Assembly (NCBI GenBank): GCA_964434475.1
Contig: CAYSVS010000001.1
Span: 22,820-86,819, forward strand
Origin: an uncultured Methanosarcinales archaeon
GTDB lineage: Archaea; Nanobdellota; Nanobdellia; Woesearchaeales; CAYSVS01
DNA: 64,000 nucleotides
Direction: 5' to 3'
Position numbers and translations under genes: made by a program. Shown here piece after piece: positions 386-45,343 of the stretch (position 1 is its first letter; the number at the start of each line of letters is the position of its first letter). The notes under the pieces were generated by a model. That model was not told the origin of the DNA, did no database searches, and saw only the letters and a program-made list of their open reading frames with translations.

Positions 386-778
386 ATGTCAGAAACAAAG
401 ACTTGGGCTATATTTGTTGTAATATTATGTACTTTCCTGACTTCGGCAGCGCAGATTTTTCTTAAATATGGTTCAAATGTGTTGAGATTTGATATGGTTT
501 CATTATTTACTAATTATAATCTTATTGCAGGCATAGTGCTTTATATGCTTGGTGCTATGCTGCTCATAGTAGCTTTCAGCGGAGGAGAAGTAACAGCTTT
601 GTATCCTATATTCGCGACAAGTTATGTGTGGGTGTTGATTTTATCGTATTTTTTTTTGGGTGAAAGCTTGAATATATTCAAGATATTGGCTATATTTATC
701 ATAATCTCTGGAATCTATCTGGTGACTTATGGAAGCAGAAAAAAAGATAAGACATTGCAATATGTGGATGTGGTATGA
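386..778 (+). CDS. Small 4-TM EamA/DMT-type membrane protein (SMR-like half transporter; ArnE/ArnF- or GtrA-like candidate flippase subunit)
   Basis: 130 aa with four hydrophobic helices and a GGEVTALYPIFATSYVWV motif typical of EamA half-domains. Paired with an overlapping paralog. Confidence 0.5.
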   Translation: MSETKTWAIFVVILCTFLTSAAQIFLKYGSNVLRFDMVSLFTNYNLIAGIVLYMLGAMLLIVAFSGGEVTALYPIFATSYVWVLILSYFFLGESLNIFKILAIFIIISGIYLVTYGSRKKDKTLQYVDVV

Positions 779-1122
779 TGGCTGTAGAATTATGGTCAGT
801 AGGATTGGTATTGGTTTGTGCCTTGATAGGAGCATTAGGTCCAATATTCATCAAAAAAGGTACAGCAGATTTAAAGTTGTCAAATATCCATAAGAACTAT
901 AATCTATTTTTAGGTGTATTCTTTTATGGTTTTTCTCTCCTACTATTTATTATAGCATTAAAAGGGGGAGAAGTATCTATATTGTATCCTTTGGTTTCTA
1001 CTGGTTATGTATGGGTTGCTTTGTTTTCTCAGAAGTATCTTAATGAATCTATGAATAGATATAAATGGTCAGGCATAGCTTTGATAATGTTTGGTGTAAT
1101 CCTTATATCTGTTGCTATGTGA
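775..1122 (+). CDS. Small 4-TM EamA/DMT-type membrane protein, paralog of the upstream gene
   Basis: 115 aa with a GGEVSILYPLVSTGYVWV motif. Start overlaps the upstream stop (ATGA). Paired small EamA proteins resemble ArnE/ArnF heterodimeric lipid-linked sugar flippases. Confidence 0.5.
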   Translation: MMAVELWSVGLVLVCALIGALGPIFIKKGTADLKLSNIHKNYNLFLGVFFYGFSLLLFIIALKGGEVSILYPLVSTGYVWVALFSQKYLNESMNRYKWSGIALIMFGVILISVAM

Positions 1123-1264: not shown

Positions 1265-4200
1265 ATGGAAGAAAATGTTAAAAAATCAGATGAAGAGGTT
1301 ATTGATGTAACTAAATATTTTAAAAATATAAAGAACATATTTATTGGAAAGAATAAAGGCTTCAAGCCCTTTTTAAAGGATCATGGATTTTGGTTTATAC
1401 CTTTGTTATGTATATTGATCGCCATGTCTTTTAGTGTTTTTATGAGAATCCAGCCTGCTTATCTTCCTATAACTGATGATTGGGCAGATAATAGTATAGA
1501 AAACTATGTCAAAAGCCAAGTGGAAACAAAGATCAATCAGCAATACCCTAATCTTCCTTCAGAGAACAAGCAATCCCTTATCACAGCTGAGATGCAGAAT
1601 GTTATGAAACAACAGGAAGACCAATTAGTACAGCAAAAAGAAGCACTTAGCCAGCAATATAAAGCAAAGATGCAGGATGAAGATGGAAGAACTTATCTGT
1701 TGGCGATAGATCCTTATTATTGGTATGGTTTGGCAAAGAATAAGATAGAGTATGGTCATTATGGTAATAAGATAAACGAAGAAGGAAAGAGTGTTTATAC
1801 TTTAAGGAATGGCAGGATAGGTAAAAAAGTGACTAGCTTCTTGGTGAATCCTGCTGCCATGGTAATCATATACAGGATTATGCATCTTTTTAACCCTTCT
1901 TTAGATCTTATGGGTGCTGCTTTTTATATGCCTTTGATATTGGTAACATTAACTATAATACCTATTTTTTTTGTAACAAGAAAAGTTGGAGGAAATGTAG
2001 GAGGGTTATTTGCAAGTATAATCTTTGCAGTCAATAGTGCTTTATTAAGCAGGACTCCGGCAGGTTTTGCAGACAGCGATGCATACAATGTATTGTTTCC
2101 AGCTTTTATCGCATGGATGTTGATAGAGGCTTTAGATGCTAAATCTGCAAGAGCTCAAAAAGGATATATCGCTTTAGGCGGCTTGTTCACAGGCTTGTTT
2201 GCTATGGCTTGGTCAGGATGGGGTTTTATGTATGATTTTGTTATAGCTACCATAGGCTTGATGTTTTTGTCGTATATTGTTGTCTATAAGAAAACATTGT
2301 TCGGACCAGAAAAATTATCTGATGGGATAAAGGATTTCTTTAAAAGGTCCAAAGTTAAAAGTATTATTACAATATTGGTAACTTATCTTATATCTGCAGC
2401 ATTGTTTGTCACGCTTTTTGTTGATTTTAACAGCTATACTTCTGCTTTGTTAAAACCTTTAAAGTTCATGAAAATAAAAGATGTTGCTGTAAAAACAGTA
2501 TGGCCTAATGTGATGACTACTGTGGCTGAATTTAATACTGTTGATTTTTCTAAAATAGTCACACAGATGGGCGGCAAACTATTGTTCTATATAGCTATAG
2601 CAGGAATAGTTTTGACAGTATTCAGGAAAGATGAAAGGGATAAGATAGATTTGAAGCATTTCTTTTTGTTGTCCATGTGGTTTGTAGGTACTGCTTATGC
2701 ATTCACTAAAGGAACAAGGTTTGCTTTGCTTATGGTGCCTGCTTTTGCGATAGCGTTCGGTGTTGCTATAGGTTATGTTTTTAAGGTTGTTTCTGAGTGG
2801 TCAAGCAGAGAATTAAAGATAAACATGGAATTATCTAAGATAATGCTTTTCATAGTTCTTGCTTTGCTGCTTGTAAGTCCTGTTAAATCAGGCAACAATG
2901 TTGCTAAACATGAGATCCCGAGTTTCAATGATGCATGGCATGATACTTTGAGAGGGATACATGATGCATCTGATGACTCTATTATAACATCGTGGTGGGA
3001 TTTTGGACATTGGTTTGTAACTATGGGCGAAAGAAGAGTTACTTTTGATGGTGGAGATCAAGGTAAAAGGATACATTGGGTAGGAAGAAGCTTGGTTACA
3101 GATGATGAAGAGGAATCTGCAGCGATACTTAAGATGCTTAATTGCGGACAAGAGGAATCTCATAGAAAATTGAAGGAGTATTTAGAAGATGACTATAAAG
3201 CAGTCATGCTATTGAAAAATATAATCATGATGGATAGGTCAGAAGCTGAACAAATACTGAAAGAAAATGGGTTGAGTGATGCTCAGGTAACTGAAGTTCT
3301 TGACTTATCGCACTGCGATAATCTAATAGATAACTTCTATATCGCTTCTGAAGACATGGTAGGAAAAGCAGGAGTTTGGGGACATTTTGGCAGTTGGGAT
3401 TTTGAGAAAGCTTCAATGTATAATAAGGTAAAGAAAATTAAGTCATACGAAGAAGGCATATCTATACTTAAGGAAGAATTTAATCTAAGTCCTGAGAAGG
3501 CTGACAACTATTATTATGAGATAAAGAACAAGGATGCTGATAAATGGATTTCACCTTGGCCAGGATATTATTCTTCTTTGAGCAATTGTAAGAAAGAAGA
3601 TAATGTTATTTTTTGTAATAATGGCGTAGAGGTAAACTTAAATACAATGGAGCCTTATATCAATTCACAAGGCGGAAGAGTACAGCCTAAAAAGATGGCT
3701 TATCTTGACAGTAATCATGAGTTTAAGGTTAAAGAATTTGAATCAGATATACCTTATGGTATTGCTCTTGTTCTGAACGGAGACAGCTATAGATCTATAT
3801 TGATGAGTCAGGAACAGACAGCTTCCATGTTTACGAGATTGTTCTATTTTGAAGGACACGGCTTAAAATATTTCAAACCTTTTAGTGACAAAACAACATT
3901 CAACGGTCAAAGGATATTAACCTATAGGATGAATTGGGATGCTAATGAGACAAATGAGGTTGAAAAATTCTTGCCTTCTTTGGAGGTAAAGGCGAGCCAT
4001 ATTTTGATTACTATGCAGGAGAATGCTACAGAAGAAGAAAGAAAGCAAAAGTTGTTGAAGATAGAACAGCTGCAGGCAAAAGCATTATCTGGAGATAATT
4101 TTGCGGTTTTGGCAAAAGAAAATTCAGATTGTCCTTCGGGTAAAGAAGGCGGCGATCTAGGATGGTTTGGCAAAGGCAATATGGTAAAGCCTTTTGAAGA

Positions 4201-4384
4201 TGCTGCTTTCAGTCTTGATGTAGGAGAGATGTCTGATGTAGTTGAAACGCGTTTTGGATATCATCTGATATATCTTACAGGAAAAAGAAGGGGCGAATCA
4301 GTAGAAGAGATCAATCTAGAGATTCCTGTTGAAGAAAAACCTGTCAATAAAACAACTGACAAATTTAGGAACGAATACAATTAA
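1265..4384 (+). CDS. aglB: Archaeal oligosaccharyltransferase AglB (STT3 family) with a C-terminal parvulin/PpiC-type peptidyl-prolyl isomerase domain
   Basis: Multi-TM N-terminal half and a WWDFG motif (SWWDFGHWFVTMG) diagnostic of STT3/AglB. The C-terminal ~110 aa (ASHILI...GGDLGWFGKGNMVKPFEDAAFSLDVGEMSDVVETRFGYHLIYL) matches PpiC/parvulin rotamases. The likely start is the ATG at 1265 (MEENVKK) preceded by a GAGGGG SD-like motif; the ORF track opens at 1226. Confidence 0.8.
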   Translation: MEENVKKSDEEVIDVTKYFKNIKNIFIGKNKGFKPFLKDHGFWFIPLLCILIAMSFSVFMRIQPAYLPITDDWADNSIENYVKSQVETKINQQYPNLPSENKQSLITAEMQNVMKQQEDQLVQQKEALSQQYKAKMQDEDGRTYLLAIDPYYWYGLAKNKIEYGHYGNKINEEGKSVYTLRNGRIGKKVTSFLVNPAAMVIIYRIMHLFNPSLDLMGAAFYMPLILVTLTIIPIFFVTRKVGGNVGGLFASIIFAVNSALLSRTPAGFADSDAYNVLFPAFIAWMLIEALDAKSARAQKGYIALGGLFTGLFAMAWSGWGFMYDFVIATIGLMFLSYIVVYKKTLFGPEKLSDGIKDFFKRSKVKSIITILVTYLISAALFVTLFVDFNSYTSALLKPLKFMKIKDVAVKTVWPNVMTTVAEFNTVDFSKIVTQMGGKLLFYIAIAGIVLTVFRKDERDKIDLKHFFLLSMWFVGTAYAFTKGTRFALLMVPAFAIAFGVAIGYVFKVVSEWSSRELKINMELSKIMLFIVLALLLVSPVKSGNNVAKHEIPSFNDAWHDTLRGIHDASDDSIITSWWDFGHWFVTMGERRVTFDGGDQGKRIHWVGRSLVTDDEEESAAILKMLNCGQEESHRKLKEYLEDDYKAVMLLKNIIMMDRSEAEQILKENGLSDAQVTEVLDLSHCDNLIDNFYIASEDMVGKAGVWGHFGSWDFEKASMYNKVKKIKSYEEGISILKEEFNLSPEKADNYYYEIKNKDADKWISPWPGYYSSLSNCKKEDNVIFCNNGVEVNLNTMEPYINSQGGRVQPKKMAYLDSNHEFKVKEFESDIPYGIALVLNGDSYRSILMSQEQTASMFTRLFYFEGHGLKYFKPFSDKTTFNGQRILTYRMNWDANETNEVEKFLPSLEVKASHILITMQENATEEERKQKLLKIEQLQAKALSGDNFAVLAKENSDCPSGKEGGDLGWFGKGNMVKPFEDAAFSLDVGEMSDVVETRFGYHLIYLTGKRRGESVEEINLEIPVEEKPVNKTTDKFRNEYN

Positions 4385-4408: not shown

Positions 4409-5074
4409 ATGGACAAAAATAATACATGGGTTGTTATACCAGCCTATAATGAAGCGACCAGAGTAGGCAAAGTAATAGAAAAAGCGAAAAAATATTGTTC
4501 TAATATTGTTGTTGTTGATGACGGCAGTAAAGATAATACCTGTGATGCAGCAAAAAAAGAAAAAGTTACTGTACTGAAGCATATAGTAAATATGGGCAAG
4601 GGATCAGCTTTGAAAACTGGTTGTGATTATGCTGTTCTTAACGGAGCAAAGTATATGGTTGTAATGGATTCAGATGGACAGCATGAAGCAAGTGAAATAC
4701 CTGGTTTTTTAAAGATGCTTGAAAAAGGAAATGATATTGTTTTTGGAAATAGGGTCAAGAGAAAAGATATGCCTTTTGTATTGCGCTTCGGAAATTGGTT
4801 CATCAATTTTATGACTTATATATTATTTGGAATTAAGTTAAGGGATACTCAATCAGGGTATAGGGCTTTCACATCAAAGGCATATAAAAAGATAAGATGG
4901 AATGCTCAGGATTATTCTATGGAATCAGAGATGATAGCTAATGCTGGTAAGAATAAGCTTAAATATAAGGAGATACCTATTGCAACAATATACGGAGATA
5001 AATATAAAGGCACAACAATAATCGATGGTGTAAAGATAGTACTTAGATTATGTTTATGGAGGTTGACAAGATGA
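4409..5074 (+). CDS. GT2-family polyprenyl-phosphate glycosyltransferase (DPM1/ArnC-like)
   Basis: N-terminal VVIPAYNEA...VVVDDGSKDNT GT-A fold signature and DSDGQH motif. 221 aa, typical dolichyl-phosphate sugar synthase size. Confidence 0.75.
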   Translation: MDKNNTWVVIPAYNEATRVGKVIEKAKKYCSNIVVVDDGSKDNTCDAAKKEKVTVLKHIVNMGKGSALKTGCDYAVLNGAKYMVVMDSDGQHEASEIPGFLKMLEKGNDIVFGNRVKRKDMPFVLRFGNWFINFMTYILFGIKLRDTQSGYRAFTSKAYKKIRWNAQDYSMESEMIANAGKNKLKYKEIPIATIYGDKYKGTTIIDGVKIVLRLCLWRLTR

Positions 5075-5400
5075 TATTGGGAATACAGATTATAGGGATA
5101 TTGTTCGGTTTGTTTATGTTATATTATACTTTTATCCATTTCAAAAGAAATGAGATATCAAGACCAGAAGTTATATTGTGGACTTTTGCATGGTTGTTTT
5201 TCATATTTTTGACGATTTTTCCTAATAGCCTGGATTTTGTAGCAAGCTCCTTAAATCTTAGCAGGACAATGGATTTTTTGATAATTATGGGATTTTTGTT
5301 CTTGATAGGTTTGACTTATTATGATTATTTTGTAACAAAAAAGAATCAAAAGAAAGTTGAATTATTAGTAAGGAAAATAGCGATAGAGAAAAAGAGGTAA
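5071..5400 (+). CDS. Small 3-4 TM membrane protein (DUF2304/GtrA-like accessory to the GT2 gene)
   Basis: Likely start is the ATG overlapping the GT2 stop (ATGA). About 109 aa with three hydrophobic helices. Small membrane partners commonly follow polyprenyl-P GT2 genes. Confidence 0.35.
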   Translation: MILGIQIIGILFGLFMLYYTFIHFKRNEISRPEVILWTFAWLFFIFLTIFPNSLDFVASSLNLSRTMDFLIIMGFLFLIGLTYYDYFVTKKNQKKVELLVRKIAIEKKR

Positions 5401-5433
5401 AGTTTATAAAGCCCTTTTTCTATTTTTATTCTT

Positions 5434-5793
5434 ATGATCCGATTTTTGAAAAAAAACTTTGTCAAGTTCAGAAATTATATAATACATAGCAAGATATTCC
5501 TGCAAAGGACAATGTCTTGGGTAAGTATAGCTAACTCAGGCATGATATTGTTTTTGGTATTAAGTAAATTTCAGGAATATGGTTTTAAGATACATATAAC
5601 AAGATGGATAATACCTATATACTTCATATTCCTTTTAATGCTTATCGTGTTTGGCTTTGTTGAAGATAGATTGGGATTTCATAGGGAAGAGAAAAGAGTG
5701 CAGGAGAGAAGAAGTCCTTATATGAAAGAGATGCTTGAAAGGATGGACAAAATCGAGAAGAAATTAAATAGCATACAGAGAAAGATAAAATGA
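5434..5793 (+). CDS. Small membrane protein, unknown function
   Basis: 119 aa with two or three hydrophobic segments. Stop overlaps the start of the downstream GT4 gene. Confidence 0.3.
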   Translation: MIRFLKKNFVKFRNYIIHSKIFLQRTMSWVSIANSGMILFLVLSKFQEYGFKIHITRWIIPIYFIFLLMLIVFGFVEDRLGFHREEKRVQERRSPYMKEMLERMDKIEKKLNSIQRKIK

Positions 5794-6923
5794 AGATACT
5801 TTTTGTGATTGAGAACTATATTCCGCATATAGGCGGGGTGGAGATCGTATTCAAGAACCTTGCAGAAGGCTTGGCTAAGCAAGGGCATGATGTTTCTATT
5901 GTCACACACAGGATAAAAAGCACTAGTAAGTATGAGACGATAAATGGTGTTGATATCTACAGGGTAAATTGTCTAAATTCAAGATATTTCTTTACATTTT
6001 TTTCTGTTCCTTTAGTCATTAAACTTGCAAAAGACTGTGATATTATCCATACGACAACATATAATGGGGCGTTTCCTGCAAAAGTTGCTGCAATGTTTAG
6101 GAGAAAGCCTTCGATAATAACTGTGCATGAAGTGTTAGGTAAATTATGGGCTATAACAGATGTGTCTTGGCTTACAGCGAAGATATTGAAGTTTTTTGAG
6201 TGGCTTATAATCAAGCTAAACTTTGACAAGTATGTTTGTGTGTCTAACTCTACAAAAAAGCAAGTGTTGACACAAAGTATAAAGAAAGATAAAGTGATGA
6301 CAATATATAACGGAGTTGATTATGACTTTTGGAATCCTAATAAATATGATGGTGAGATTATACGTAATAAATTAGGATTGCAGGATAATTTTGTATTCTT
6401 GTTTTACGGCAGACCTGGAGTTAGTAAAGGACTAGAGTATTTGATTAAAGCTATTCCTAAGATTATTGAGAAAGTGCCAAATGCTATGTTTTTTGGAATT
6501 GTGAGTAAAGATAAGGCTTATCAGAAGAGATATGATATGATCTTGGATATGATCAAGAACTTAGGTATTGAGAATAATGTGATTATGCATGATCCTGTTC
6601 CATATAAGGAATTGCCTAATTTCATCAAGATGGCAGATTGCGTGGTTATACCAAGCTTGACAGAAGGCTTTGGTTTTACGACAGCAGAAAGCTGCGCTAT
6701 GGATAAGCCTGTAGTAGTAAGTAATACAACTTCTTTGCCAGAGGTTGTTTCAGGCAGATATAAACTTGTTTCGCCTAAAGATTCTAGTGCAATAGCTGAA
6801 GCTGTAATTAATATTGCAAACAATAAATATGAGCAAAAGCCGAAGAAAATATTTAATCTGCAGGATAATATAGACAATTATGTCAAGCTTTACAAAAGTA
6901 TGTTAAATAAAGAAAAGATTTAA
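5790..6923 (+). CDS. GT4-family glycosyltransferase (Glyco_trans_4 + Glycos_transf_1)
   Basis: N-terminus MKILFVIENYIPHIGGVEIVFKNLAEGLAKQGHDVSIVT and a C-terminal EGFGFTTAESCAMDKPVV E-x7-E motif. Confidence 0.75.
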   Translation: MKILFVIENYIPHIGGVEIVFKNLAEGLAKQGHDVSIVTHRIKSTSKYETINGVDIYRVNCLNSRYFFTFFSVPLVIKLAKDCDIIHTTTYNGAFPAKVAAMFRRKPSIITVHEVLGKLWAITDVSWLTAKILKFFEWLIIKLNFDKYVCVSNSTKKQVLTQSIKKDKVMTIYNGVDYDFWNPNKYDGEIIRNKLGLQDNFVFLFYGRPGVSKGLEYLIKAIPKIIEKVPNAMFFGIVSKDKAYQKRYDMILDMIKNLGIENNVIMHDPVPYKELPNFIKMADCVVIPSLTEGFGFTTAESCAMDKPVVVSNTTSLPEVVSGRYKLVSPKDSSAIAEAVINIANNKYEQKPKKIFNLQDNIDNYVKLYKSMLNKEKI

Positions 6924-29287: not shown

Positions 29288-32200
29288 TTGAGGGGAAAGA
29301 GAGGATTTAGTAGAGTAAGATTATTGTTGTTAGTTTTTGTTATTTTAGCTATGTCTTCTTATGCTTTGCCTTCTTTTATATCTATCTGGGATGATACTGA
29401 TCTAGGTAAAGTTATGTATCCTTATAATATGACTTATTTCTATGCTAATTATACTAATTCAACTGGGGACGTAATAACGGGCATGACTCCAGTTTGTAAC
29501 ATAACCATTATAAATACAGAAGGTCCAGGTATAGCGGGTCCTATCCCTATGCAGTATAATGCTGTATCTTTTTTATATGAATACAATAACACTTTTGATG
29601 ATGAAGGTTTGATGTTTGGACCAGGCATACATGATTGGAACGTTAGTTGTGCTTATGATCTTTATGATTATAATTCTAGCTCAGATACTGTAAATATTTC
29701 AGGAGATATGGATGAGATTTTCATAGAAAAATACGCCTTAAATGGAACGGTGTATGAAGATGAGATTGTTACATTCATCCTGAATGTAACGAATTTTGGC
29801 ATGGAAAATTATACAGACTTGTTTTTGGTTGATGAGTTCAACATCAGTTATCTAAATTTTAGTGCATCTACAACTTACCCTGTAAATATTATTCCTGAAG
29901 TTAACTATACTTCTGGAGAAGTTGAATGGATGCTTAATTTAAGCGTAGGCCATTCTTTTGTTGCATTAGTGAATTTCACAGCACTTCAAACAGGCAACAC
30001 AACAAACTATGTTTATGTTAAAAACGATACAGAATATTTTGGAGGAGATTTTGAGGAGATTGAAATCTTGTGGGAAGAAGAGCTTTGTAATCTTGATTTT
30101 AGCAATGTTTCATGCATTTCAAGAGAACCTTGGTGTTCCTGGAATGAAGACTATTGGAATCCTTTTACCCAAGAAGATGGATATTGTATGCCTAATTGTT
30201 CTTTGTTGACAGTAGAGGATTGTCAAGATTATCCTTATGAATGCAATTGGAACGGAAGCAGTTGTAATGATCTAGATTGTTATAGTATAGGCATTGAATC
30301 AGAATGTGGCCAGTATGATCAATGTTATTGGGATTTTGAAGAAAGTGATTGCGATCCTAATTGCACCTACTTTAACTATGATAATCCTGAGTTTAATGAG
30401 TCAAGCGACAATATATTTGAGAATGCAAGTATTTGGTGTATGAAAGCTGATTGCGATTGGAATGGAAGCTATTGTATTGAAGATGAAGAAGAGATAAATA
30501 TTTCTGTAAATAAAATTTTGTTGGACTCCAACATCTATCCTGGAGATACTGTTCAGTTTATGATAAACATAACCAATGTTGGAGATAGTGGCTTGGTTAA
30601 TATCTGGGGTTATGATGACTATAATGATACTTTTATGAATTTTACAGGCATAAGCTGCGGATATATGGCTCATGGTTCAAGATGGGTGCAGATTAATTTT
30701 ACTCAATGTGTTGGTGGTGGTTTGCCACCAGGAGAATCTGTTGCTGCATATATTAACTTTACTGCATTAGAATCAGGCAGTACTTTTAACAATGTCAGCG
30801 TTAATGCAACAGATTTTGATATGAATAATATACTTGAATCTGACCAGATAGATTTCGGGATCTTGGGCGGAGAAGAAGGAAGCGAAGCACCTTGTAATAT
30901 TGAGAATGAAACACAGTGTTTTATGAGAAGCGAGTGTATCTGGGATGACATGATGCATAATCCTTTAACTGATAGCAATGGTTATTGTCAGACCAATTGT
31001 TCTTTGTTGACAGTAGAGGATTGTCAAGATTATCCTTATGAATGCAATTGGAACGGAAGCAGTTGTAATGATCTAGATTGTTATAGTATAGGCATTGAAT
31101 CAGAATGTGGCCAGTATGATCAATGTTATTGGGATTTTGAAGAAAGTGATTGCGATCCTAATTGCACCTACTTTAACTATGATAATCCTGAGTTTAATGA
31201 GTCAAGCGACAATATATTTGAGAATGCAAGTATTTGGTGTATGAAAGCTGATTGCGATTGGAATGGAAGCTATTGTATTGAAGATGAAGAAGAGATAAAT
31301 ATTTCTGTAAATAAAATTTTGTTGGACTCCAACATCTATCCTGGAGATACTGTTCAGTTTATGATAAACATAACCAATGTTGGAGATAGTGGCTTGGTTA
31401 ATATCTGGGGTTATGATGACTATAATGATACTTTTATGAATTTTACAGGCATAAGCTGCGGATATATGGCTCATGGTTCAAGATGGGTGCAGATTAATTT
31501 TACTCAATGTGTTGGTGGTGGTTTGCCACCAGGAGAATCTGTTGCTGCATATATTAACTTTACTGCATTAGAATCAGGCAGTACTTTTAACAATGTCAGC
31601 GTTAATGCAACAGATTTTGATATGAATAATATACTTGAATCTGACCAGATAGATTTCGCAATCTTGGGTGGAGAAGAAGATGAAGATAATGTAACTATAA
31701 ACAAGACAGTTATAACCCCGAGTGTTGAAGACGGAAGTATAGCATCATTTATGATAACAGTTAATAACAACGAACCATATAATATTACAAATTATGAAGT
31801 ATATGATTTCTTCAATACTAGTATGATCAATTATACTGCTGCAAGTTATACGCCCGAGGATATTAATTATACTATGGGTAGAGTTATCTGGGTAATCAAT
31901 AATCTTGAGAATTACAGCTCTTTTTCATTCAATGTGAATTTTTCAACATTTATAGAAGGAAATACTACAAATTATGTTGTCCTGAAGAACAGCACAGGAA
32001 ATCATGTTGCGGATGATAACGCAAGTTTAGAGATAACCTTATTTGAGGAAGAAGATGAAGGAATGTATGATTTTGGAGATGCGCCTGACTCTTGCAACCA
32101 TTTCGGAACAGATATGGAGACAGATCCTAGTATGTTTACCAGCGATATAATTGCAAATTATCCTACAGTACATAACATAACCTTAAAAGATAATTGCGGA

Positions 32201-35200
32201 AAAACTTATGGTCCTTGTCATGATAACTATTTTTTGACTTTAGGAAGTAATATAACCTTAGAACAAGAAGCTGATAAAGGAACTGATGAAGATGCTCCTG
32301 ATAATAATATTCAGCCATCAATAAACCAATCTGATTTTGATTCGATCGGAACAAGTTTTGGAATGGATGATGGGCTAGATGCAGCAGGTATTGATTCTAC
32401 AAGTTTAAACCAATTTAATTGGTCACATTGTGAGAATGTCACAATACCTGTAAATATTACTGTAATTGGCGGTCCTTATGCAAGCGATTGGAATGCGACA
32501 TTGAACATTTGGATTGATTATAGTAGGAATGGACAATGGGGCAGTCCCGGAGGGACAGAGGATTATGTCATGTGCGGTATGGATTCTATATCTGAATGGG
32601 TTGTGCAGAATGAAGTTGTAGCTCAGTTAAGTGGTGGCGGATTTGGTCCAGGTTCTTTTCTACACAATGTAACTTTTATGGCACTCTCTAATTTTTCAAA
32701 CTATACTTGGATGAGATTACAGGTGACTCCTACAGAAGTCGATATAATAGATTATGCTGATGGTTCAGGTCCTGCTGTGTGTTATGAAGATGGAGAAACA
32801 GAGGATTATTATGTTAAAATTATGCCTTTGGAAGAAGAGGAAGAAGAGTTTGAGGAGAATGTTACTATAGAAAAAACCGCTTTGTATTCTGAAGTAGAAA
32901 ATGGAAGTATAGCAACATTCATGATAAACGTAACCAATTATAATGATTTTAATATCACTGATTATGTAATATATGATTTCTTCAACACAAGCATGCTGAA
33001 TTATACTGCTGCAAGTTATACGCAAGAGGATGTCAATTATACTGAAGGAAGAGTTGTTTGGGTTATCAATAATCTTCCTGCTTATGAATCATTTGAGTTT
33101 AGTGTAAACTTTACAACATTGATGATAGGAAACACGACCAATGAAGTTATCTTGAAAAATAGTACAGGAGATTATGTTGATGAAGATGAAGCAAGTTTAG
33201 ATATTATTATGGCTGCAGAAATGCCTGTATTCAATTTTAATGGAACAGTGTATGATGATATGGGTAATACTCTTAGCGGAGCGAATGTCAGTGTAGATGT
33301 ATGGAATAATACAGAAGAACCTATCAGGATTTCAGTTGAATCCACTTTAACCGATGGTTCTGGAGAATTTAATATAGCTCTGCCTGAATATGATCTTGTT
33401 GATAATTATATTTACAAGACAAAAGTGTATTTCGATAATGGTACGCATATATTTGTAAGCAAAGCACCTATGTCTTTATTAAAATCACAATTGGTTGGTG
33501 TTTCTCCTGCACAATTCCATATGACAGAAGGCACCAAATTAAATATTAGTTTGATGGAGATTCCTGGCGAATCAAGATGTTTTATGGATACACTTAAGGA
33601 TGGATTAACAGGAGTCAGAGTAGGTGGGATAGAAGGTACAGTTGGAGATGAAAACGAGAACACTTCGATAAATTTCAGTATAATATATGTGCCTACTGGT
33701 AGAGATTATTCTTTAAGGCTTCAGCCTTGCGCAGCCGATCCTTTTTCAAGAGATATTTCTGCTTCTGAATTAAATCCTAATACTGTCACTAATTTACAAT
33801 ATAACTATTCCCAATCTTTTACCTTTGTTAGTGGCTATGTTAATGGAGATAATTTTGATACTTTCCATATAAACAATTTCGCGTTTGAAGCTGATGCTAT
33901 GATAAAGATACTTGGACCTAATCCAAGCAATAGTGCTTCTGAATCAACAGGAAATGGATTAAATACAAATGATACTTATGATGCATCAACTGGCTTCTTT
34001 AACATTAGCCTACCTGGAAAAGTTTCTCCTGGTGCAAATGTATTCTTGTTTTTTGTAGCTGAAAACAGTTCAGGAAGATACGCTGCTTTTAGGAATTATA
34101 CTATAAATTATAATCAGCCAACTTTTGATATAGGGATTATTGATTTGTATAAGATGCAAGGGTATGCTGCAGATAGGCAGATAAAATATAGTTATAGGGA
34201 AAGCAACGGAAACATTACACAAAAACAAACAAACATCACTGAAGTAAATATTTCATTAGTTGATGAAAGCGGATTACCTGTAACAGACACTTTGTTTATC
34301 GAAGCTTCATTTGAATATGATACTTCAGAATTAACTGATTTTTTTATACCTGTAGAGATTCCGGGATATGATTATCAGGGTGAAAGAATATTTTATAATG
34401 GCAAATTTACTGTTCCTGTTTTAGAAGGGGGAAATATTAAGATAAAAGTATATTCTCCTAAATATTCTATCAAGGAATATGATATTTCAAGCGAAGAGAT
34501 AGCTGCATTAAATCCCGGCGACTCTATAGAGTTAAACTTAACCAATTATACTTCAGGAGATATTGCTGGAAGCTTAAGCACAGATGATATATTTATAGAA
34601 TTTTTAGAGGATTCTCCTGAGTGCAGCAAGCCTGATTATGATGCAGATGCATGTGCCAGGATACCAAGACAAACATTGACAGATTTTAATTATATAGATA
34701 GTGCTTTGGGACTTAGCGAGGCTAATATTGTCGTAGGGAGGAATAGTACAGGCTTGTCTGTAATGTATGTTGAAGCTGATCTTTTTACTTCTGGTGCTTT
34801 AGAAGCTTTATTTGATTCTGATGCTGTTGCTTCAGGTTCAGGTGATTCTTTAGAAGAAGCATGGAGATTCGGAAGTATGGGTCCTGATATATATGAACAC
34901 ATCTTGATATCTATGCCTTATAATGACACTTTCAATGAAAGCGAGTTGGGTTTTAATCTAGATTATCTTTATGATGATAATTGGAATATTATCTGGAATG
35001 TTTCTGCTAATGGTACAAATGTTAACATTGATGATTACTTGGATTATTCTTCTGATTATTTTGAAGGGATAGAATGTACAGATGTTAACAAGAGTGCAAA
35101 GTGTTATATCAATACTAGCTTAAATATGGCTTGGATAAGAGTTCCTCATTTTTCGGGAGTTGGACCTGTATTTGGTATTTTGGATGAAGGCGAGGATATA

Positions 35201-38200
35201 GAAAACGCAACAATAACAAAAACTGCAGTTTTATCGCAAGTAGATAATGGTTCAATCGCTCAATTTATAATAAATATTACTAATACTGGCACAGCTAATA
35301 TTACCAATGCAGAACTTGGTGATGAATATAATATTTCTTATATGAACTTTACAGGCTATTCAACTTTAGACTTAGGTATATCTTTGCCAAATGTTATGGG
35401 CAATAGGGTTGAATGGGATGTTAATATTAGTGTTGGAGAAAGCGTATCTTTGATTGTAAACTTTACAACCTATGCAGTAGGCAACACAACCAACGAGGTT
35501 GAGTTTGAGAAAAACGAAACATATGATTTTGATTCTGATGAAGCTAATCTGGAGATTCTTGTTGGTGTTCCTCATTTCATAGAGAACGCTTCTTTGACAA
35601 AGACTGCTTTGAATAGTCCTGTTGATGTGGGTAGTATTGCGCAGTTTATGATTAATGTTACCAATACAGGTAATGTTAATCTTACTGGATATGAATTGAC
35701 TGATAGATTTAATATAAGCTATATGAATTTCACTTGGGCAAGTCAACCACCAAATGATGTGAGGTTTAGTGAAGGCGAAGTTGAATGGGTATTGAACGTA
35801 AGTGTTGGTGAATCTGAAATAATTCATGTGAATTTTACAACCTATAAAACAGGCACAACATTTAATGAGGTAGATTTTGAAAATAGTACTGGTTTTGGAA
35901 TAACTGAGAGTAATGTGGGTATTGAAATTATAGAACCTGCTTCAGATGTATTGCTTGTCAATACTACAGGATATATTAATCAGACAGGATATTTTATACT
36001 TAATTTAACAAATCCTATCCAGGCAGCAATAGATTCTGCAAATATAGGAGATTTGATTAACATATCCGAAGGAGTATATTTAGCAAATATAAGGGTAGAT
36101 AAAAAAATAGAAATTCATGGAGTTAATAAGACAGGTACAATAATAAGTGCTGCGTCTTCTGGAACAGATATCTTTTATGTTCAAGAAGATAAGGTAAATA
36201 TAAGTCAAATGACATTGACGCGTGCAAATACTGGTTCTGTTGCAGGTATACATTTGCATAATGCAAGCAGGTGCGTGGTGGAAAATGTTTTTTCATTTAA
36301 CAATAGTTATGGTGTTTTAATAACAGGAACATCAGATCATCATATTTGTAATGAGAATATAATAAAAAACAATAATCTTAGCCTGAATATTATAAGAAAT
36401 ATAGGTATAGGTTATTCAAATGGGTATTGCGATGATAACGAAATAATCGATAACCATATATCCTTTTCAATACAGGATGGAATTGCAGTATCAAATTCTG
36501 CAAATACAATAATACGTGATAATAAGATATACAATAATACTAATTCTGGTGGCTATGCTATATCTTTGTCAAGTACCACAAACACTTCAATATACGATAA
36601 TGAAATCCTAAATAATTATTATGGGATGAGGATAACTAATCCTTATGTGGGTAATCAGTATCATAATTATATATATGAAAACATCTTAACAGATAATAGG
36701 ATTAATTTCTATATATTGCATAAGGATAATATTATCTTTAACAATACTATAGTTTCTTTTGCAGATTGGGGTTCGTCAAATTATGGTTTTTGGATGGATC
36801 TTGATGCAGCGAACAATACAATATATAACAATATTATAAATATTTCAGGTGTAACAAGTTTGTTTTCTGTAGTGAAACCAAATAATTGGAATACTACAAG
36901 TAGTGCAGATACCAATATTATAGGAAAAAGTGCTTTTGGAGGCAATTTTTGGGCGAACGAATCAGGAGGTTTTTCTGTAACTTGTTCGGACAATGATTTT
37001 GACGGATATTGTGATGCTAATTATGTTTTAGATACTGGCAATATAGATTATTTTCCTTTAGCAGCAGAAATGGGACAGAATCCTACTGTTTTTATAGAAA
37101 ATGCTACATTAACAAAGACAGTTTTGAATAGTACTGTAGCTAACGGCAGTATTGCGCAGTTTATGATTAATGTTACCAATACAGGTAATGTTAATCTTAC
37201 TGGATATGAATTGACTGATAGATTTAATATAAGTTATATGAATTTCACTTGGGCAAGTCAACCACCACATGATGTGAGGTTTAGTGAAGGCGAAGTTGAA
37301 TGGATGTTTAATCTTAGTGTTGGCAGCACCAAAGTAATTTTTGTCAATTTCACCACCTATAAGGTTGGCAATACGACTAATGGAGTTGATCTTGTAAATT
37401 CATCTGATGATGATATAGCTTATGATGATGCTGATCTTGTTATAACTCTTCCTCTTGTTCCATCTAACATCACAACAGTAGGCTTAGGCAGTCCTTGCTT
37501 AAACCATAACGATTATTTTGAAGGTGCAGCAACATCGCCTTTTGAAGGTCCTGTTAATCCTGATTTAAACAAAATGCCTGATTATTTTTCAGCTGATGGA
37601 GATGTTGTGTATATGTTGGCTAATTTCACATATAACGCTACGCATGGTAACTGTTCTAATATGACTGTTACAGCTGATTTCTCTTTAGCGGGTGGAGAAA
37701 GCAATATTCCAGCAGATTTATTTTCATTTACAAATACTAGCGAATCTTATTATTGTATTTTCAATGCATCTGGAACAGTAAATATGAGCAATGATGTTTC
37801 TTTGGATGGCATGTTAATTGCGCCAGTAAACGTAAGCTTTACAGCAACTGACGGAATAAATAATGTTACAGGAAAAGGAAGGAATGCTGTTATAGTTAAT
37901 ACAACTTATGCTCCATCATGTGGAGTTAATCAACCTGATAATTGCACTATTGCAGATTTGGGTGGGTTTACTGGAGATTCAACAGATTTCATCGACTTGG
38001 CGCATAATGGTAATTTCTTTGATTTCGATAATTTAACTTTTGATATTCCAGGACATAGCAAGATAGTGTTTACAGATAATGTTTCAATTCCAAGACCGAG
38101 TGCTATGCAGGGTTTGATGGATTTTGCTGTAGATAATATGTTGATTAACGGAACTATCGGGGTTAATGATTCTAAATATGATGGCAGCTATGATGATAAA

Positions 38201-44566: not shown

Positions 44567-44571
44567 GGAAG

Positions 44572-45219
44572 ATGAGAATAAGATCTATTTTTTGTTTGAT
44601 ATTAATTTTTTTTATTTCTGTACTGCCTTGTTTAGCTGAACCTTTGGGTGTTTTTGGATATGTTAAGGATATAGAGGGCAATCCTGTTGGCTGTATAGAT
44701 ATGGCTTTCACTGATCTGTCTGAAGATTATACAGGTCATCCTATATCTGGAAAAACTAATTGCGGCGGAATGTATGTTGGAAAATACGCAGTATTTTTTT
44801 ATGAGATAGATGGAGCCAAGGGAAATGATGTGATAGAGATAAAGTTAGATTATGCAGGCAACATCTTCATAGAAAAATTTAATCTTGACGGAAATGAACA
44901 CAATATTACTCTGGATCTTGTTGGTGTTGTTAAAGAATCTGATGGTGAGATTGTTGATTTGATTCCTGTTCCTGCACTTTTTTTGGATGATAAAGATATT
45001 TTACAGGATAAAGATGAAAAAGAATCTATGAAAAAAAATATAAAAGATGCTGTTATTTCAGTTACTGAAAATAAGACAGATAATAATTTAGAAATATCTA
45101 ATAATTATGAAAATATAAATAAAGAACAAGATGTAGGTTATTGTTTAAATATAAAATATTTTATTTTGTTTGGATTTATTTTTTTGATATTATTTTTTTC
45201 TTATAGAAAATTATCTTAG
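44572..45219 (+). CDS. Small secreted protein with C-terminal TM anchor (carboxypeptidase-regulatory-like beta-sandwich motif)
   Basis: Signal peptide MRIRSIFCLILIFFISVLPCLA, GYVKDIEGNPVGCIDMAF (CarboxypepD_reg-like), and a C-terminal hydrophobic YFILFGFIFLILFFSYRKLS. AAGGAAG SD before the ATG. Confidence 0.5.
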   Translation: MRIRSIFCLILIFFISVLPCLAEPLGVFGYVKDIEGNPVGCIDMAFTDLSEDYTGHPISGKTNCGGMYVGKYAVFFYEIDGAKGNDVIEIKLDYAGNIFIEKFNLDGNEHNITLDLVGVVKESDGEIVDLIPVPALFLDDKDILQDKDEKESMKKNIKDAVISVTENKTDNNLEISNNYENINKEQDVGYCLNIKYFILFGFIFLILFFSYRKLS

Positions 45220-45343
45220 TTACTTATATCGGGCTGATATATTATCGATAAAAAGACATACAACAAATAACAACATTTATAAATGGTACGCGATTTAATC
45301 TTTATTTAATAATGTTAAAACATTATAAAGGGAGGGTTTGAAT

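What the first reader, a model, noticed from the sequence alone, without database searches (positions are those of the whole stretch)
1265..4384. AglB oligosaccharyltransferase fused to a parvulin/PpiC peptidyl-prolyl isomerase domain
The WWDFG-containing STT3 catalytic region is followed, in one ORF, by ~110 aa with the clear PpiC rotamase signature (ASHILI...GGDLGWF...FGYHLIYL). An OST carrying its own extracytoplasmic prolyl isomerase would couple N-glycosylation to folding of secreted substrates. In this window those substrates would include the sequon-saturated giant proteins. I am not aware of this fusion being described.
Basis: partly seen in the sequence, partly recalled or inferred. 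Interest (0 to 1): 0.7.

Follow-up and report, generated by a model that had tools for sequence, protein, structure and literature searches.

The report
Glycosylation enzyme fused to prolyl isomerase
One archaeal membrane protein joins the enzyme that attaches sugars to exported proteins with an outward-facing protein-folding enzyme; the fusion recurs in many related uncultured archaea, sometimes with a different folding enzyme at the same spot, and I found no paper describing it.

Summary
Window 1265-4384 (+) is one uninterrupted 1039-aa ORF. It has an STT3/AglB oligosaccharyltransferase part (Pfam STT3 E=5.5e-40; all catalytic motifs present), a 14-aa linker, and a Par10/PrsA-type parvulin domain (Pfam Rotamase E~1e-28; canonical active site H912, C956, H1000). 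A second assembly of the locus is identical. No hydrophobic segment follows the last membrane helix, so the parvulin lies on the same outer face as the WWDFG catalytic domain.

It is not a one-off. Of the 120 closest public homologues, all Woesearchaeota/Nanoarchaeota (DPANN) metagenome genomes, 52 carry the same fusion, 20 carry an FKBP-type isomerase at the same C-terminal position, and 48 carry nothing. Among the 80 nearest GTDB species representatives the counts are 28, 6 and 41, in a conserved glycosylation locus.

Two unrelated isomerase folds at one site, both with conserved active sites, point to selection for isomerase or chaperone activity tethered to the transferase. Coupling of the two activities is inferred, not shown.

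The window's two giant exported proteins are strongly sequon-enriched and are plausible substrates. Eight literature searches found no description of the fusion. The nearest analogues are PrsA, human FKBP11 at the Sec61/OST-A translocon, and Ost3/6.

The parts
1265..4384 (+). Complete aglB-parvulin fusion gene (1039 aa plus stop)
   Evidence: Single ORF. It equals database protein P0001 and is identical in a second assembly.
1265..1459 (+). Cytoplasmic N-terminal tail and first transmembrane helix (aa 1-65; TM1 about aa 40-65)
   Evidence: Hydropathy. AF2 helix 33-61.
1460..1897 (+). External loop 1 (aa 66-211). It carries a lineage-specific three-helix insertion (aa 69-134, near-invariant YPNLP motif at 94-98) and the catalytic Asp149 (nt 1709-1711).
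   Evidence: D149 is invariant in 118 homologues and aligns with human STT3A D49. The helices have pLDDT about 97.
1673..2866 (+). STT3 (GT-C) membrane domain, aa 137-534. Includes the second DXD motif D270-S-D272 (nt 2072-2080) and the TIXE-type motif T419-V-A-E422 (nt 2519-2530).
   Evidence: Pfam PF02516 E=5.5e-40. The motif residues are invariant. DSD aligns with the STT3A DNE.
2903..3934 (+). External C-terminal globular domain of AglB (aa 547-890). Contains WWDFG (nt 2993-3007), DGG..K (aa 595-601, nt 3047-3067), the DK/MI-position motif D697-M-x-x-K701-x-x-x-W705, and four invariant Cys (627, 684, 775, 784).
   Evidence: Weak Pfam STT3-PglB_core hit at aa 571-666. Foldseek matches to PglB, AglB and STT3.
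3935..3976 (+). Short linker (aa 891-904) between the AglB core and the parvulin domain
   Evidence: The tether is 13-32 aa (median 16) in 52 fused homologues. pLDDT is 93 or higher in the AF2 model, so it is modelled as ordered.
3977..4285 (+). Parvulin/PpiC-type peptidyl-prolyl isomerase domain (aa 905-1007). Active-site residues: H912 (nt 3998-4000), C956 (nt 4130-4132), L965, M973, F977, F997, H1000 (nt 4262-4264).
   Evidence: Pfam Rotamase_3 and Rotamase, E=2.6e-28 and 2.3e-27. PDB sequence hits to PrsA, Ess1, SurA and Par10. Active-site conservation. Fold match to 3gpk with TM 0.89 and rmsd 1.7 A.
4286..4381 (+). C-terminal tail (aa 1008-1039). One extra strand, then a disordered acidic/basic tail.
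   Evidence: pLDDT below 50 for aa 1021-1039. Tail length varies from 0 to 73 aa among homologues.
4409..6923 (+). Downstream glycosylation genes: GT2 (4409-5074), DUF2304 membrane protein (5050-5400), a small unassigned ORF (5434-5793) and GT4 (5790-6923). This is context that defines the locus as an N-glycosylation cluster.
   Evidence: Pfam. GT2 and DUF2304 flank AglB in 24 of 28 parvulin-fused, 6 of 6 FKBP-fused and 37 of 41 unfused species.
386..1122 (+). Two overlapping half-size EamA/SMR-like membrane proteins (130 and 115 aa) directly upstream. They are a candidate lipid-linked-sugar flippase pair (context).
   Evidence: Pfam EamA E=1e-7 and 7e-10. Rare next to AglB elsewhere: 2 of 75 loci.
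29288..50602 (+). Two giant exported proteins (29288-44566, 5092 aa; 45338-50602, 1754 aa). These are the putative substrates.
   Evidence: Sequons 258 against 88.6+-8.0 and 80 against 40+-5.1 in composition-preserving shuffles, while every other ORF is near expectation. Signal-like N-termini, and a C-terminal TM anchor on the second.

Best explanation
The gene encodes a real bifunctional surface-maturation enzyme of a Woesearchaeota-type (DPANN) archaeon.

The N-terminal 890 residues are a single-subunit oligosaccharyltransferase (AglB, STT3 family). It transfers a lipid-linked glycan to Asn in N-x-S/T sequons of proteins emerging on the outside of the cytoplasmic membrane. A 14-residue tether joins its external C-terminal domain to a Par10/PrsA-type parvulin prolyl isomerase, which therefore also sits outside the cell, held close to the membrane and to the OST's peptide-binding site.

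Proposed mechanism (inferred). Exported chains leave the Sec channel unfolded. AglB glycosylates their sequons while they are still flexible. The tethered isomerase/chaperone domain binds the same chain. It either keeps it glycosylation-competent for longer or catalyses the slow Xaa-Pro isomerisations needed to fold it afterwards. A cell with no periplasm cannot retain a soluble foldase, so it must be anchored. Fusion to AglB supplies both the anchor and proximity to the substrate. The heavily sequon-loaded giant surface proteins in the same window are the most obvious clients.

Shown: the fusion, the intact catalytic motifs of both halves, the absence of an intervening membrane segment, recurrence across species, and replacement by FKBP at the same site.

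Inferred: external location (from the family's topology), PPIase activity, and coupling to glycosylation.
For: Both domains are significant on one ORF, and a second assembly is identical.

OST motifs are present and invariant across 118 homologues: D149, D270/D272, T419-V-A-E422, W577-W-D579, D595-G596.

The parvulin pocket is conserved in 52 fused homologues: H912 52/52, H1000 52/52, L965 52/52, M973 51/52, F977 52/52, F997 49/52. The query has Cys at the Pin1-C113/Par10 position.

No hydrophobic segment follows aa 546.

The AF2 model has mean pLDDT 93.4 and pTM 0.87, with an ordered linker. Foldseek finds PglB (TM 0.70), AglB and STT3 for the core, and parvulin domains (TM up to 0.89) for the end.

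Recurrence:
- 52 of the 120 nearest proteins carry parvulin, 20 carry FKBP_C and 48 carry neither.
- Among the 80 nearest GTDB species representatives the counts are 28, 6 and 41.
- The PPIase always starts directly after the core, about 320-340 aa after WWDFG.

FKBP-fused proteins keep the FKBP pocket: Y26, D37 and Y82 in 20/20, F36 and H87 in 19/20. An FKBP-fused homologue also models confidently, with pLDDT 90.9 and pTM 0.84.

The locus is orthologous whatever the architecture.

The giant ORFs are sequon-enriched and exported.

Against: - No experiment bears on it, and PPIase activity and coupling are untested.
- 48 of 120 close orthologues lack any PPIase domain and have no PPIase gene nearby, so the domain is dispensable for AglB function.
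- In 21 of 52 fused homologues the Cys/Asp catalytic position is Gly. Full isomerase chemistry may therefore not be what is selected everywhere.
- Proline is not enriched around sequons in the giant proteins. This argues against a sequon-proximal isomerisation model.
- For human FKBP11 the authors argue for an adaptor role rather than an isomerase role, because its catalytic site is buried.
- Model coordinates and PAE were not available, so the relative placement of the two active sites is unknown.
Confidence: 0.65

Rival explanations
1. Anchor only. The parvulin (or FKBP) is a general PrsA-like extracellular foldase. It uses AglB simply as a convenient, abundant membrane anchor near the Sec translocon. 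The two activities act independently, on overlapping but not coordinated substrates.
For: - The domain is gained, lost or swapped freely among orthologues with no change to the OST motifs.
- It is attached at the extreme C-terminus, the easiest place for a fusion.
- Gram-positive bacteria solve the same retention problem with a lipid anchor on PrsA, which is the best PDB sequence match.
- No proline-sequon association is seen.
Against: - Two unrelated PPIase folds are found on this same protein, at the same position, in many species. A random choice of anchor would be expected to scatter them over many membrane proteins.
- The tether is short and uniform, and both AF2 models treat the junction as ordered.
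- The 120 nearest relatives of the parvulin domain listed were all free-standing and included no other membrane-protein fusions. That search scored only 244 candidates.
Confidence: 0.22
2. Non-catalytic module. The PPIase fold serves as a peptide-binding or adaptor domain, or as an intramolecular regulator of AglB. It might recruit unfolded chains or partner proteins, or gate the peptide site. Prolyl isomerisation itself would be irrelevant, as proposed for human FKBP11.
For: - Gly replaces the Cys/Asp catalytic residue in 21 of 52 fused homologues.
- The FKBP11 precedent, where the catalytic site is buried by CCDC134.
- Confident, apparently rigid docking in the AF2 models.
Against: - Both catalytic His and the whole hydrophobic proline pocket are essentially invariant, and the FKBP pocket is likewise conserved. 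That is the pattern expected for a domain that still binds Xaa-Pro substrates.
- The window's own copy has the complete canonical Par10/Pin1 set, including Cys956.
Confidence: 0.1
3. Artefact. Two adjacent genes (aglB and a parvulin gene) were merged by an assembly or sequencing error that removed a stop codon or a frameshift.
For: Raw reads could not be examined. The window comes from a metagenome-assembled genome.
Against: - The sequence is identical in an independent assembler's contig.
- The same in-frame architecture occurs in at least 52 divergent proteins and 28 species-level genomes.
- Linker length is conserved.
- No unfused locus has a separate PPIase gene downstream.
Confidence: 0.01

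Closest known systems
Single-subunit oligosaccharyltransferases AglB / PglB / STT3 (e.g. Archaeoglobus fulgidus AglB-L 7E9S, Campylobacter lari PglB 5OGL/6GXC)
   Same: The GT-C membrane domain plus external globular domain. The first catalytic Asp, second DXD, TIXE, WWDYG-type and DGGK-type motifs are all present. Best structural neighbours are PglB at TM 0.70, then AglB and STT3A.
   Different: - None of the characterised enzymes carries a PPIase or any other enzymatic domain after the C-terminal globular domain.
- The tyrosine of WWDYG is Phe.
- The first 'DXD' is A-I-D.
- There is an extra ~85-aa three-helix insertion in EL1.
- It scores far below the NCBIfam cut-offs for archaeo_STT3 (64 against 450 bits) and PglB (51 against 1300 bits).
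PrsA (Gram-positive lipoprotein foldase) and other extracytoplasmic parvulins (SurA, PpiD, PEB4)
   Same: A parvulin domain of the non-phospho-specific Par10 type, held at the outer face of the cytoplasmic membrane to assist exported proteins. PrsA is the top PDB sequence hit (6vj6, E=2.2e-18), and structural rmsd is 1.6-2.0 A.
   Different: PrsA is anchored by a lipid and owes much of its foldase activity to its dimeric N/C chaperone domain. Here only the ~100-aa parvulin core is present, with no SurA_N/PrsA NC domain detected, and the anchor is a 13-TM-type glycosyltransferase.
Human FKBP11 at the ribosome-Sec61-OST-A translocon (PDB 9N9J; Nature 2025, PMC12804085; DiGuilio et al. 2024 as cited there)
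   Same: A PPIase-fold protein on the exoplasmic/lumenal side, physically associated with the STT3-containing OST and recruited for clients with long translocated segments. The FKBP-fused Woesearchaeal AglBs are the covalent counterpart.
   Different: FKBP11 is a separate single-pass protein that binds non-covalently and dynamically. Its catalytic site is buried by CCDC134, and the authors favour an adaptor role. There is no evidence of common descent with the archaeal fusions.
Ost3/Ost6 (TUSC3/MagT1) thioredoxin-like subunits of eukaryotic OST (from established knowledge, not tested here)
   Same: A protein-folding catalyst attached to the OST on the substrate side. It is thought to hold substrates in a glycosylation-competent state and so raise site occupancy.
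   Different: They use oxidoreductase rather than prolyl-isomerase chemistry. They are separate subunits, not a fusion, and are found only in eukaryotes.
FKBP_C-fused AglB of other Woesearchaeota
   Same: An orthologous AglB at 41-50% identity in the same locus, with a PPIase domain of ~100 aa starting at the same point after the core.
   Different: The PPIase fold is unrelated (FKBP, Pfam PF00254, E=1e-14 to 1e-22), with a ~17-aa insertion after the FDSS motif.

Membership tests
STT3/AglB/PglB oligosaccharyltransferase (GT-C, CAZy GT66) | Significant match to the STT3 family profile | tested here: met
   Pfam PF02516, 138.6 bits against a gathering cut-off of 24.5, aa 137-534.
STT3/AglB/PglB oligosaccharyltransferase (GT-C, CAZy GT66) | Catalytic Asp of the first DXD motif in external loop 1 | tested here: met
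   D149 is invariant in 118 homologues and aligns with human STT3A D49. The first acidic residue of the motif is absent (A-I-D).
STT3/AglB/PglB oligosaccharyltransferase (GT-C, CAZy GT66) | Second DXD motif | tested here: met
   D270-S-D272 is invariant and aligns with the STT3A D-N-E.
STT3/AglB/PglB oligosaccharyltransferase (GT-C, CAZy GT66) | TIXE/SVSE motif in external loop 5 | tested here: met
   T418-T419-V420-A421-E422 is invariant. The motif definition comes from PMC8342417.
STT3/AglB/PglB oligosaccharyltransferase (GT-C, CAZy GT66) | [quoted passage not shown] | tested here: met
   WWDFG at aa 577-581. W577, W578, D579 and G581 are invariant, and Y is replaced by F in 116 of 118.
STT3/AglB/PglB oligosaccharyltransferase (GT-C, CAZy GT66) | DGGK (bacterial/euryarchaeal) or DNxTxN (eukaryotic/TACK/Asgard) motif after WWDYG | tested here: met
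   F-D595-G-G-D-Q-G-K601. D595 and G596 are invariant, so this is the DGGK type with a 3-residue spacer.
STT3/AglB/PglB oligosaccharyltransferase (GT-C, CAZy GT66) | DK (DxxKxxxM/I) or MI (MxxIxxxI/V/W) motif forming the Ser/Thr pocket | tested here: inconclusive
   The invariant D697-M698-V-G-K701-A-G-V704-W705 sits where the motif is expected but fits neither consensus exactly (M-x-x-K-x-x-x-W). It was assigned by sequence position only, with no structural superposition.
STT3/AglB/PglB oligosaccharyltransferase (GT-C, CAZy GT66) | Overall fold: multi-pass GT-C membrane domain plus external mixed alpha/beta domain | tested here: met
   AF2 pLDDT 93.4. Foldseek: PglB 6gxc E=8e-20 with TM(target) 0.70, AfAglB 7e9s E=7e-14, STT3A E about 1e-13.
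STT3/AglB/PglB oligosaccharyltransferase (GT-C, CAZy GT66) | Oligosaccharyl transfer activity to Asn-x-Ser/Thr | not testable with these tools
   Needs an in vitro assay or complementation.
NCBIfam TIGR04154 archaeo_STT3 (archaeosortase A-associated) and NF050801 PglB equivalog | Score above the curated cut-off | tested here: not met
   64.4 bits against 450, and 51.4 bits against 1300. It belongs to neither curated subfamily.
Parvulin (PpiC-type) peptidyl-prolyl isomerase | Significant match to the Rotamase profiles | tested here: met
   PF13616 at 99.4 bits (cut-off 22.5), PF00639 at 96.3 bits (cut-off 21.7), PF13145 at 33.5 bits (cut-off 27).
Parvulin (PpiC-type) peptidyl-prolyl isomerase | Active-site His pair, Cys/Asp, and the hydrophobic proline pocket (Pin1 H59, C113, L122, M130, F134, S154, H157; CsPinA H9, D41, M59, F63, F83, H86) | tested here: met
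   H912, C956, L965, M973, F977, F997 and H1000 in the query. The residue list comes from PMC8530231. Among 52 fused homologues the Cys/Asp position is D in 25, G in 21 and C in 6.
Parvulin (PpiC-type) peptidyl-prolyl isomerase | Parvulin fold (beta-alpha3-beta-alpha-beta2) | tested here: met
   AF2 elements E906-916, H923-941, H946-953, H957-961, E964-969, H975-983, E993-995, E998-1009. Foldseek: 3gpk TM 0.89 and rmsd 1.7 A; 4g2p TM 0.86.
Parvulin (PpiC-type) peptidyl-prolyl isomerase | Phospho-Ser/Thr-Pro specificity loop (Pin1 K63/R68/R69). This defines the Pin1 subtype only. | tested here: not met
   There is no basic loop between beta1 and alpha1, and F997 replaces Pin1 S154 as in Par10/PrsA. 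It is therefore Par10/PrsA type, not Pin1 type.
Parvulin (PpiC-type) peptidyl-prolyl isomerase | Catalysis of cis/trans isomerisation | not testable with these tools
   Needs an enzyme assay.
PrsA/SurA-type foldases | N-/C-terminal chaperone (NC or SurA_N) domain flanking the parvulin domain | tested here: not met
   No SurA_N or PrsA NC-domain hit. PDB alignments cover only the parvulin segment of PrsA (116-212) and SurA (258-367). It works like a PrsA but is not a member.

The most novel reading that the evidence does not exclude
The AglB-PPIase fusions would be a minimal, single-polypeptide 'glycosylate-and-fold' machine. The isomerase cleft would be docked so that it receives, or holds, the same nascent chain that occupies the OST peptide site, raising sequon occupancy and folding yield of giant surface glycoproteins. 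Parvulin and FKBP would have been recruited convergently for this job in DPANN archaea. This would be an independent, covalent counterpart of the accessory folding factors (FKBP11, Ost3/6) that eukaryotic OST complexes recruit non-covalently, and a natural Rosetta-stone argument that OST-PPIase coupling is a general principle.
Probability: 0.35. Interest if true: 0.8.

Novelty: new variant of a known kind. Interest (0 to 1): 0.62.

Why it matters
How N-glycosylation is coordinated with protein folding is a central question in glycobiology. OST needs unfolded sequons, and folding competes with it.

In eukaryotes the answer involves accessory subunits and recently discovered translocon partners, including the prolyl isomerase FKBP11 seen next to OST-A in 2025, whose catalytic role is disputed. 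Archaeal and bacterial OSTs have been treated as stand-alone enzymes.

A widespread natural fusion of AglB to an external prolyl isomerase is comparative-genomic evidence that isomerase or chaperone activity beside the OST is selectively useful. Two unrelated isomerase folds are interchangeable at the same site, which strengthens that evidence. The fusion also offers a one-gene system in which coupling can be tested by domain deletion and point mutation.

It further points to a possible extracellular protein-folding catalyst in archaea, where such factors are poorly known. It may matter for engineering single-subunit OSTs for glycoprotein production. Finally, it is relevant to how genome-reduced DPANN archaea build the huge, heavily glycosylated surface proteins thought to mediate their host interactions.

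Tried and rejected
**Artefact hypothesis.** Rejected. The independent contig is identical and the architecture recurs.

**Gene fission or adjacent PPIase gene in unfused relatives.** I searched 6-kb flanks of 80 loci with parvulin and FKBP HMMs. The only hit outside an AglB ORF was one unrelated FKBP ORF, in a locus whose AglB is already parvulin-fused. The unfused B3_Woes locus has the same neighbours and no PPIase.

**Sequon-proximal proline model.** Proline frequency at positions -6 to +8 around 258 and 80 sequons shows no enrichment and is depleted at +3 to +6. I dropped this as a specific mechanism.

**Single origin versus repeated capture.**
- An NJ tree of the AglB core intersperses the three architectures.
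- An NJ tree of parvulin domains puts 51 of 52 fused domains in one pure clade, with the query's own domain outside it, next to free-standing PpiC proteins from bacterial-looking contigs.
- Column resampling gave no support (0 of 30).
- Core and domain distances correlate only weakly (Spearman 0.31).
- The free-standing set was also chosen by similarity to the query, which biases the result.
- The history is left unresolved.

**Parvulin-domain-only database search.** It returned only short free-standing parvulins from 244 candidates. It gave no information on other fusions.

**AlphaFold DB fold search.** The library was unavailable.

**DiGuilio 2024 FKBP11 paper.** Not held. It is cited only through PMC12804085.

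**Unused tools.** The exhaustive protein-representative search was not run, because no query design would have counted fusions outside this family cleanly.

Full report
**1. The observation**

The ORF listing shows one open frame from 1226 (TTG) or 1265 (ATG) to the stop at 4384 on the + strand. The ATG at 1265 gives a 1039-aa protein. That protein is identical to a database entry (P0001), and its N-terminus matches the consensus of its homologues.

Pfam finds both domains on this one polypeptide, each far above its curated cut-off:
- STT3, aa 137-534, E=5.5e-40.
- PpiC-type rotamase, aa 905-1007, E=2.6e-28 (Rotamase_3) and 2.3e-27 (Rotamase).

NCBIfam and a PDB sequence search agree. The C-terminal ~100 aa match PrsA, Ess1, SurA and Par10 at E=1e-18 to 1e-13. 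The first 890 aa match STT3A and archaeal AglB C-terminal domains.

A contig assembled independently by the Logan project from run SRR7048224 is identical to the window over 9,594 nt.

**2. Anatomy**

Transferase half. Every catalytic element listed for the family in PMC8342417 is present, and each is invariant in a 118-sequence alignment:
- D149 in external loop 1, aligned to human STT3A D49.
- The second DXD, D270-S-D272.
- The TIXE-type T419-V-A-E422.
- W577-W-D579.
- The DGGK-type D595-G-G-D-Q-G-K.

The DK/MI position holds an invariant hybrid, D697-M-x-x-K701-x-x-x-W705, which I could not assign with confidence.

Isomerase half. The parvulin domain has the complete canonical active site: H912, C956, L965, M973, F977, F997 and H1000. 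It lacks the Pin1 phosphate-binding loop, so it is Par10/PrsA-like.

Structure prediction. An AlphaFold2 model built on the family alignment has mean pLDDT 93.4 and pTM 0.87. The 14-residue linker is modelled as ordered (pLDDT 93 or higher). Only the first 13 and last 19 residues are disordered.

Foldseek against the PDB returns the following:
- For the core: PglB (TM 0.70), A. fulgidus AglB and STT3A/B.
- For the end: isolated parvulin domains (3gpk TM 0.89, rmsd 1.7 A; PrsA rmsd 1.6-2.0 A).

**3. Topology**

Hydrophobic segments occupy aa 40-546. After aa 546 no 19-residue window exceeds a Kyte-Doolittle mean of 0.77. The parvulin domain is therefore on the same side of the membrane as the WWDFG domain.

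In all solved members of the family that side is extracytoplasmic, because the WWDYG domain forms one active site with external loops 1 and 5. This is an inference from family knowledge and the fold match, not a direct test.

**4. Is it a one-off?**

No. The search of 5.8 billion proteins lists 120 close homologues at 39-59% identity. Wherever a source names them, it labels them Woesearchaeota, Nanoarchaeota or Nanoarchaeia (DPANN) MAGs.

| Set | Parvulin-fused | FKBP-fused | No extra domain | Incomplete |
|---|---|---|---|---|
| 120 nearest proteins | 52 | 20 | 48 | - |
| 80 nearest GTDB species representatives | 28 | 6 | 41 | 5 |

- The FKBP_C domains (PF00254, an unrelated PPIase fold) sit at the same C-terminal position. 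They were confirmed by fresh Pfam scans at E=1e-14 to 1e-22.
- The PPIase always begins immediately after the globular domain. The tether is 13-32 aa (median 16) for parvulin, and FKBP proteins carry about 117-127 extra residues. Unfused proteins simply end 2-100 residues after the core.
- The scan of GTDB species representatives found at least 560 genomes with a relative. The table shows my classification of the 80 best loci.
- Many of these MAGs carry an 'uncultured Methanosarcinales' label. Given the sequence relationships, I take that to be a placeholder.
- The neighbouring GT2 and DUF2304 genes are present whatever the architecture: 24 of 28, 6 of 6 and 37 of 41 loci. These are therefore orthologues at one locus, and the PPIase is a polymorphic appendage.
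- No unfused locus has a separate PPIase gene nearby.

**5. Are the appended domains maintained as enzymes?**

In the 52 parvulin-fused proteins, both His, the Leu/Met/Phe proline pocket and the FGxH motif are 94-100% conserved. The Cys/Asp position is Asp in 25, Gly in 21 and Cys in 6, the query among the six.

In the 20 FKBP-fused proteins, Y26, D37 and Y82 are 20/20 and F36 and H87 are 19/20. An FKBP-fused homologue also models confidently through the junction, with pLDDT 90.9 and pTM 0.84.

Both appendages look like functional Xaa-Pro-binding domains under purifying selection. The frequent Gly leaves room for a binding rather than a catalytic role in some lineages.

**6. History**

Neighbour-joining trees are poorly resolved.
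- The three architectures are interspersed on the core tree.
- 51 of 52 fused parvulin domains form one pure clade. The window's own domain is the exception, nearest to free-standing PpiC proteins on bacterial-looking contigs.
- Resampling support for that pattern is nil, and the comparison set was chosen by similarity to the query.

I conclude only that the C-terminal module has been gained, lost or exchanged repeatedly.

**7. Context and likely clients**

The gene sits in a glycosylation cluster. From upstream to downstream it contains:
- a geranylgeranyl-reductase-like gene on the longer contig, upstream of the window start;
- two half-size EamA proteins;
- aglB;
- GT2;
- DUF2304;
- GT4.

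The window also encodes two giant exported proteins:
- The 5092-aa ORF has 258 sequons against 88.6+-8.0 in composition-preserving shuffles.
- The 1754-aa ORF has 80 against 40+-5.1.
- All other ORFs are near expectation.
- Both have signal-like N-termini, and the second has a C-terminal membrane anchor.

They are plausible major AglB substrates. Proline is not enriched near their sequons.

**8. Mechanism**

Best-supported reading: this is a bifunctional, outward-facing maturation enzyme. AglB glycosylates flexible sequons of chains leaving the Sec channel. The tethered PPIase/chaperone domain acts on the same chains, either prolonging glycosylation competence or accelerating proline-limited folding afterwards. 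Fusion also solves the retention problem of an extracellular foldase in a cell without a periplasm.

The strongest argument for selection on PPIase-type function at this location is the use of two unrelated PPIase folds at the same site across many species.

Rivals:
- Anchor only, a PrsA-like general foldase with no coordination (0.22).
- A non-catalytic adaptor or regulator, as argued for human FKBP11 (0.10).
- Artefact (0.01).

**9. Comparison with what is known**

It is a member of the STT3/AglB family and of the parvulin family; the membership table lists the tested features. It is not a member of the PrsA/SurA foldases, because it has no NC or SurA_N domain, although it probably works like PrsA.

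The most striking parallel is human FKBP11. [quoted passage not shown] The Ost3/Ost6 thioredoxin subunits are a further analogue, from established knowledge.

**10. Novelty**

Eight full-text searches found no description of an STT3/AglB-PPIase fusion.
- A 2021 survey of archaeal PPIases reports parvulins as rare in Archaea and absent from Nanoarchaeota. It does not mention STT3, DPANN or Woesearchaeota.
- A 2024 review of archaeal N-glycosylation does not mention it either.

The sequences are public but only auto-annotated, for example as 'peptidylprolyl isomerase' for a 1026-aa protein.

The library covers open-access papers and bioRxiv only, so a mention elsewhere cannot be excluded.

I classify this as a new variant of a known kind: known domains, and an undescribed, recurrent and functionally suggestive architecture.

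**11. Verdict**

- Observation: confirmed.
- Structural interpretation: supported.
- Functional coupling: plausible but untested.
- Interest: 0.62.

Noticed in passing
window 1460-1708 (aa 66-148 of the fusion protein): Between TM1 and the catalytic Asp149 the AglB has an ~85-aa insertion, predicted as three long external helices (pLDDT about 97). It carries a near-invariant Y94-P-N-L-P98..N101 motif. In human STT3A the catalytic Asp follows TM1 directly. The insertion is family-wide and independent of the PPIase. The N-terminal region varies greatly in length among homologues, with WWDFG at aa 498-819.
   Followed up: partly
window 3143-3145, 3314-3316, 3587-3589, 3614-3616 (Cys627, Cys684, Cys775, Cys784): Four cysteines in the external C-terminal domain are invariant across 118 homologues. 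This suggests two structural disulfides on the outer face. Distances in the model could not be checked.
   Followed up: no
window 3347-3381 (aa 695-705): The position expected for the DK/MI Ser/Thr-pocket motif holds an invariant hybrid, S-E-D-M-V-G-K-A-G-V-W (M-x-x-K-x-x-x-W). It fits neither published consensus.
   Followed up: partly
window 29288-44566 and 45338-50602: Two giant ORFs (5092 and 1754 aa) have signal-like N-termini. Their N-x-S/T sequon counts are about 3-fold and 2-fold above composition-matched shuffles (z about 21 and 8). The second ends in a TM helix plus a KPKKRKNKK tail. Proline is not enriched near the sequons.
   Followed up: partly
window 386-778 and 775-1122: Two overlapping half-size EamA/SMR-like membrane proteins (130 and 115 aa) lie immediately upstream of aglB. 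They resemble the ArnE/ArnF type of heterodimeric lipid-linked-sugar flippase. A comparable pair is found next to AglB in only 2 of 75 related loci.
   Followed up: partly
window 3977-4285 (parvulin domain): The window's own parvulin domain is atypical among the fused ones. It keeps Cys at the Pin1-C113 position (6 of 52 do). In a distance tree it is the only fused domain outside the fused clade, nearest to free-standing PpiC proteins on bacterial-looking contigs (GreA and ZnuABC neighbours). This could reflect a separate capture or a domain replacement, but the tree has no resampling support.
   Followed up: partly
L003, L009, L012, L015, L020 and other loci: Many GTDB representative MAGs that carry this Woesearchaeota-type AglB are titled 'uncultured Methanosarcinales archaeon' (TPA assemblies). 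One is titled 'Candidatus Aminicenantes bacterium' (L078). These are probably placeholder or mis-binned labels.
   Followed up: no
L001 122-4488 (upstream of the window start on the longer Logan contig): Upstream of the EamA pair lie a 1091-aa ORF with no Pfam hit and a FAD-binding geranylgeranyl-reductase-like gene. The reductase-like gene also precedes aglB in the unfused B3_Woes genome (L002). It could be the polyprenol reductase that makes the dolichol carrier.
   Followed up: no
window 3944-3952, 4022-4030, 4346-4354 (N894, N920, N1028): Three of the protein's four own sequons lie in the linker, the parvulin domain and the C-terminal tail. If they were found glycosylated in proteomic data, that would directly prove external exposure of the PPIase domain.
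   Followed up: no
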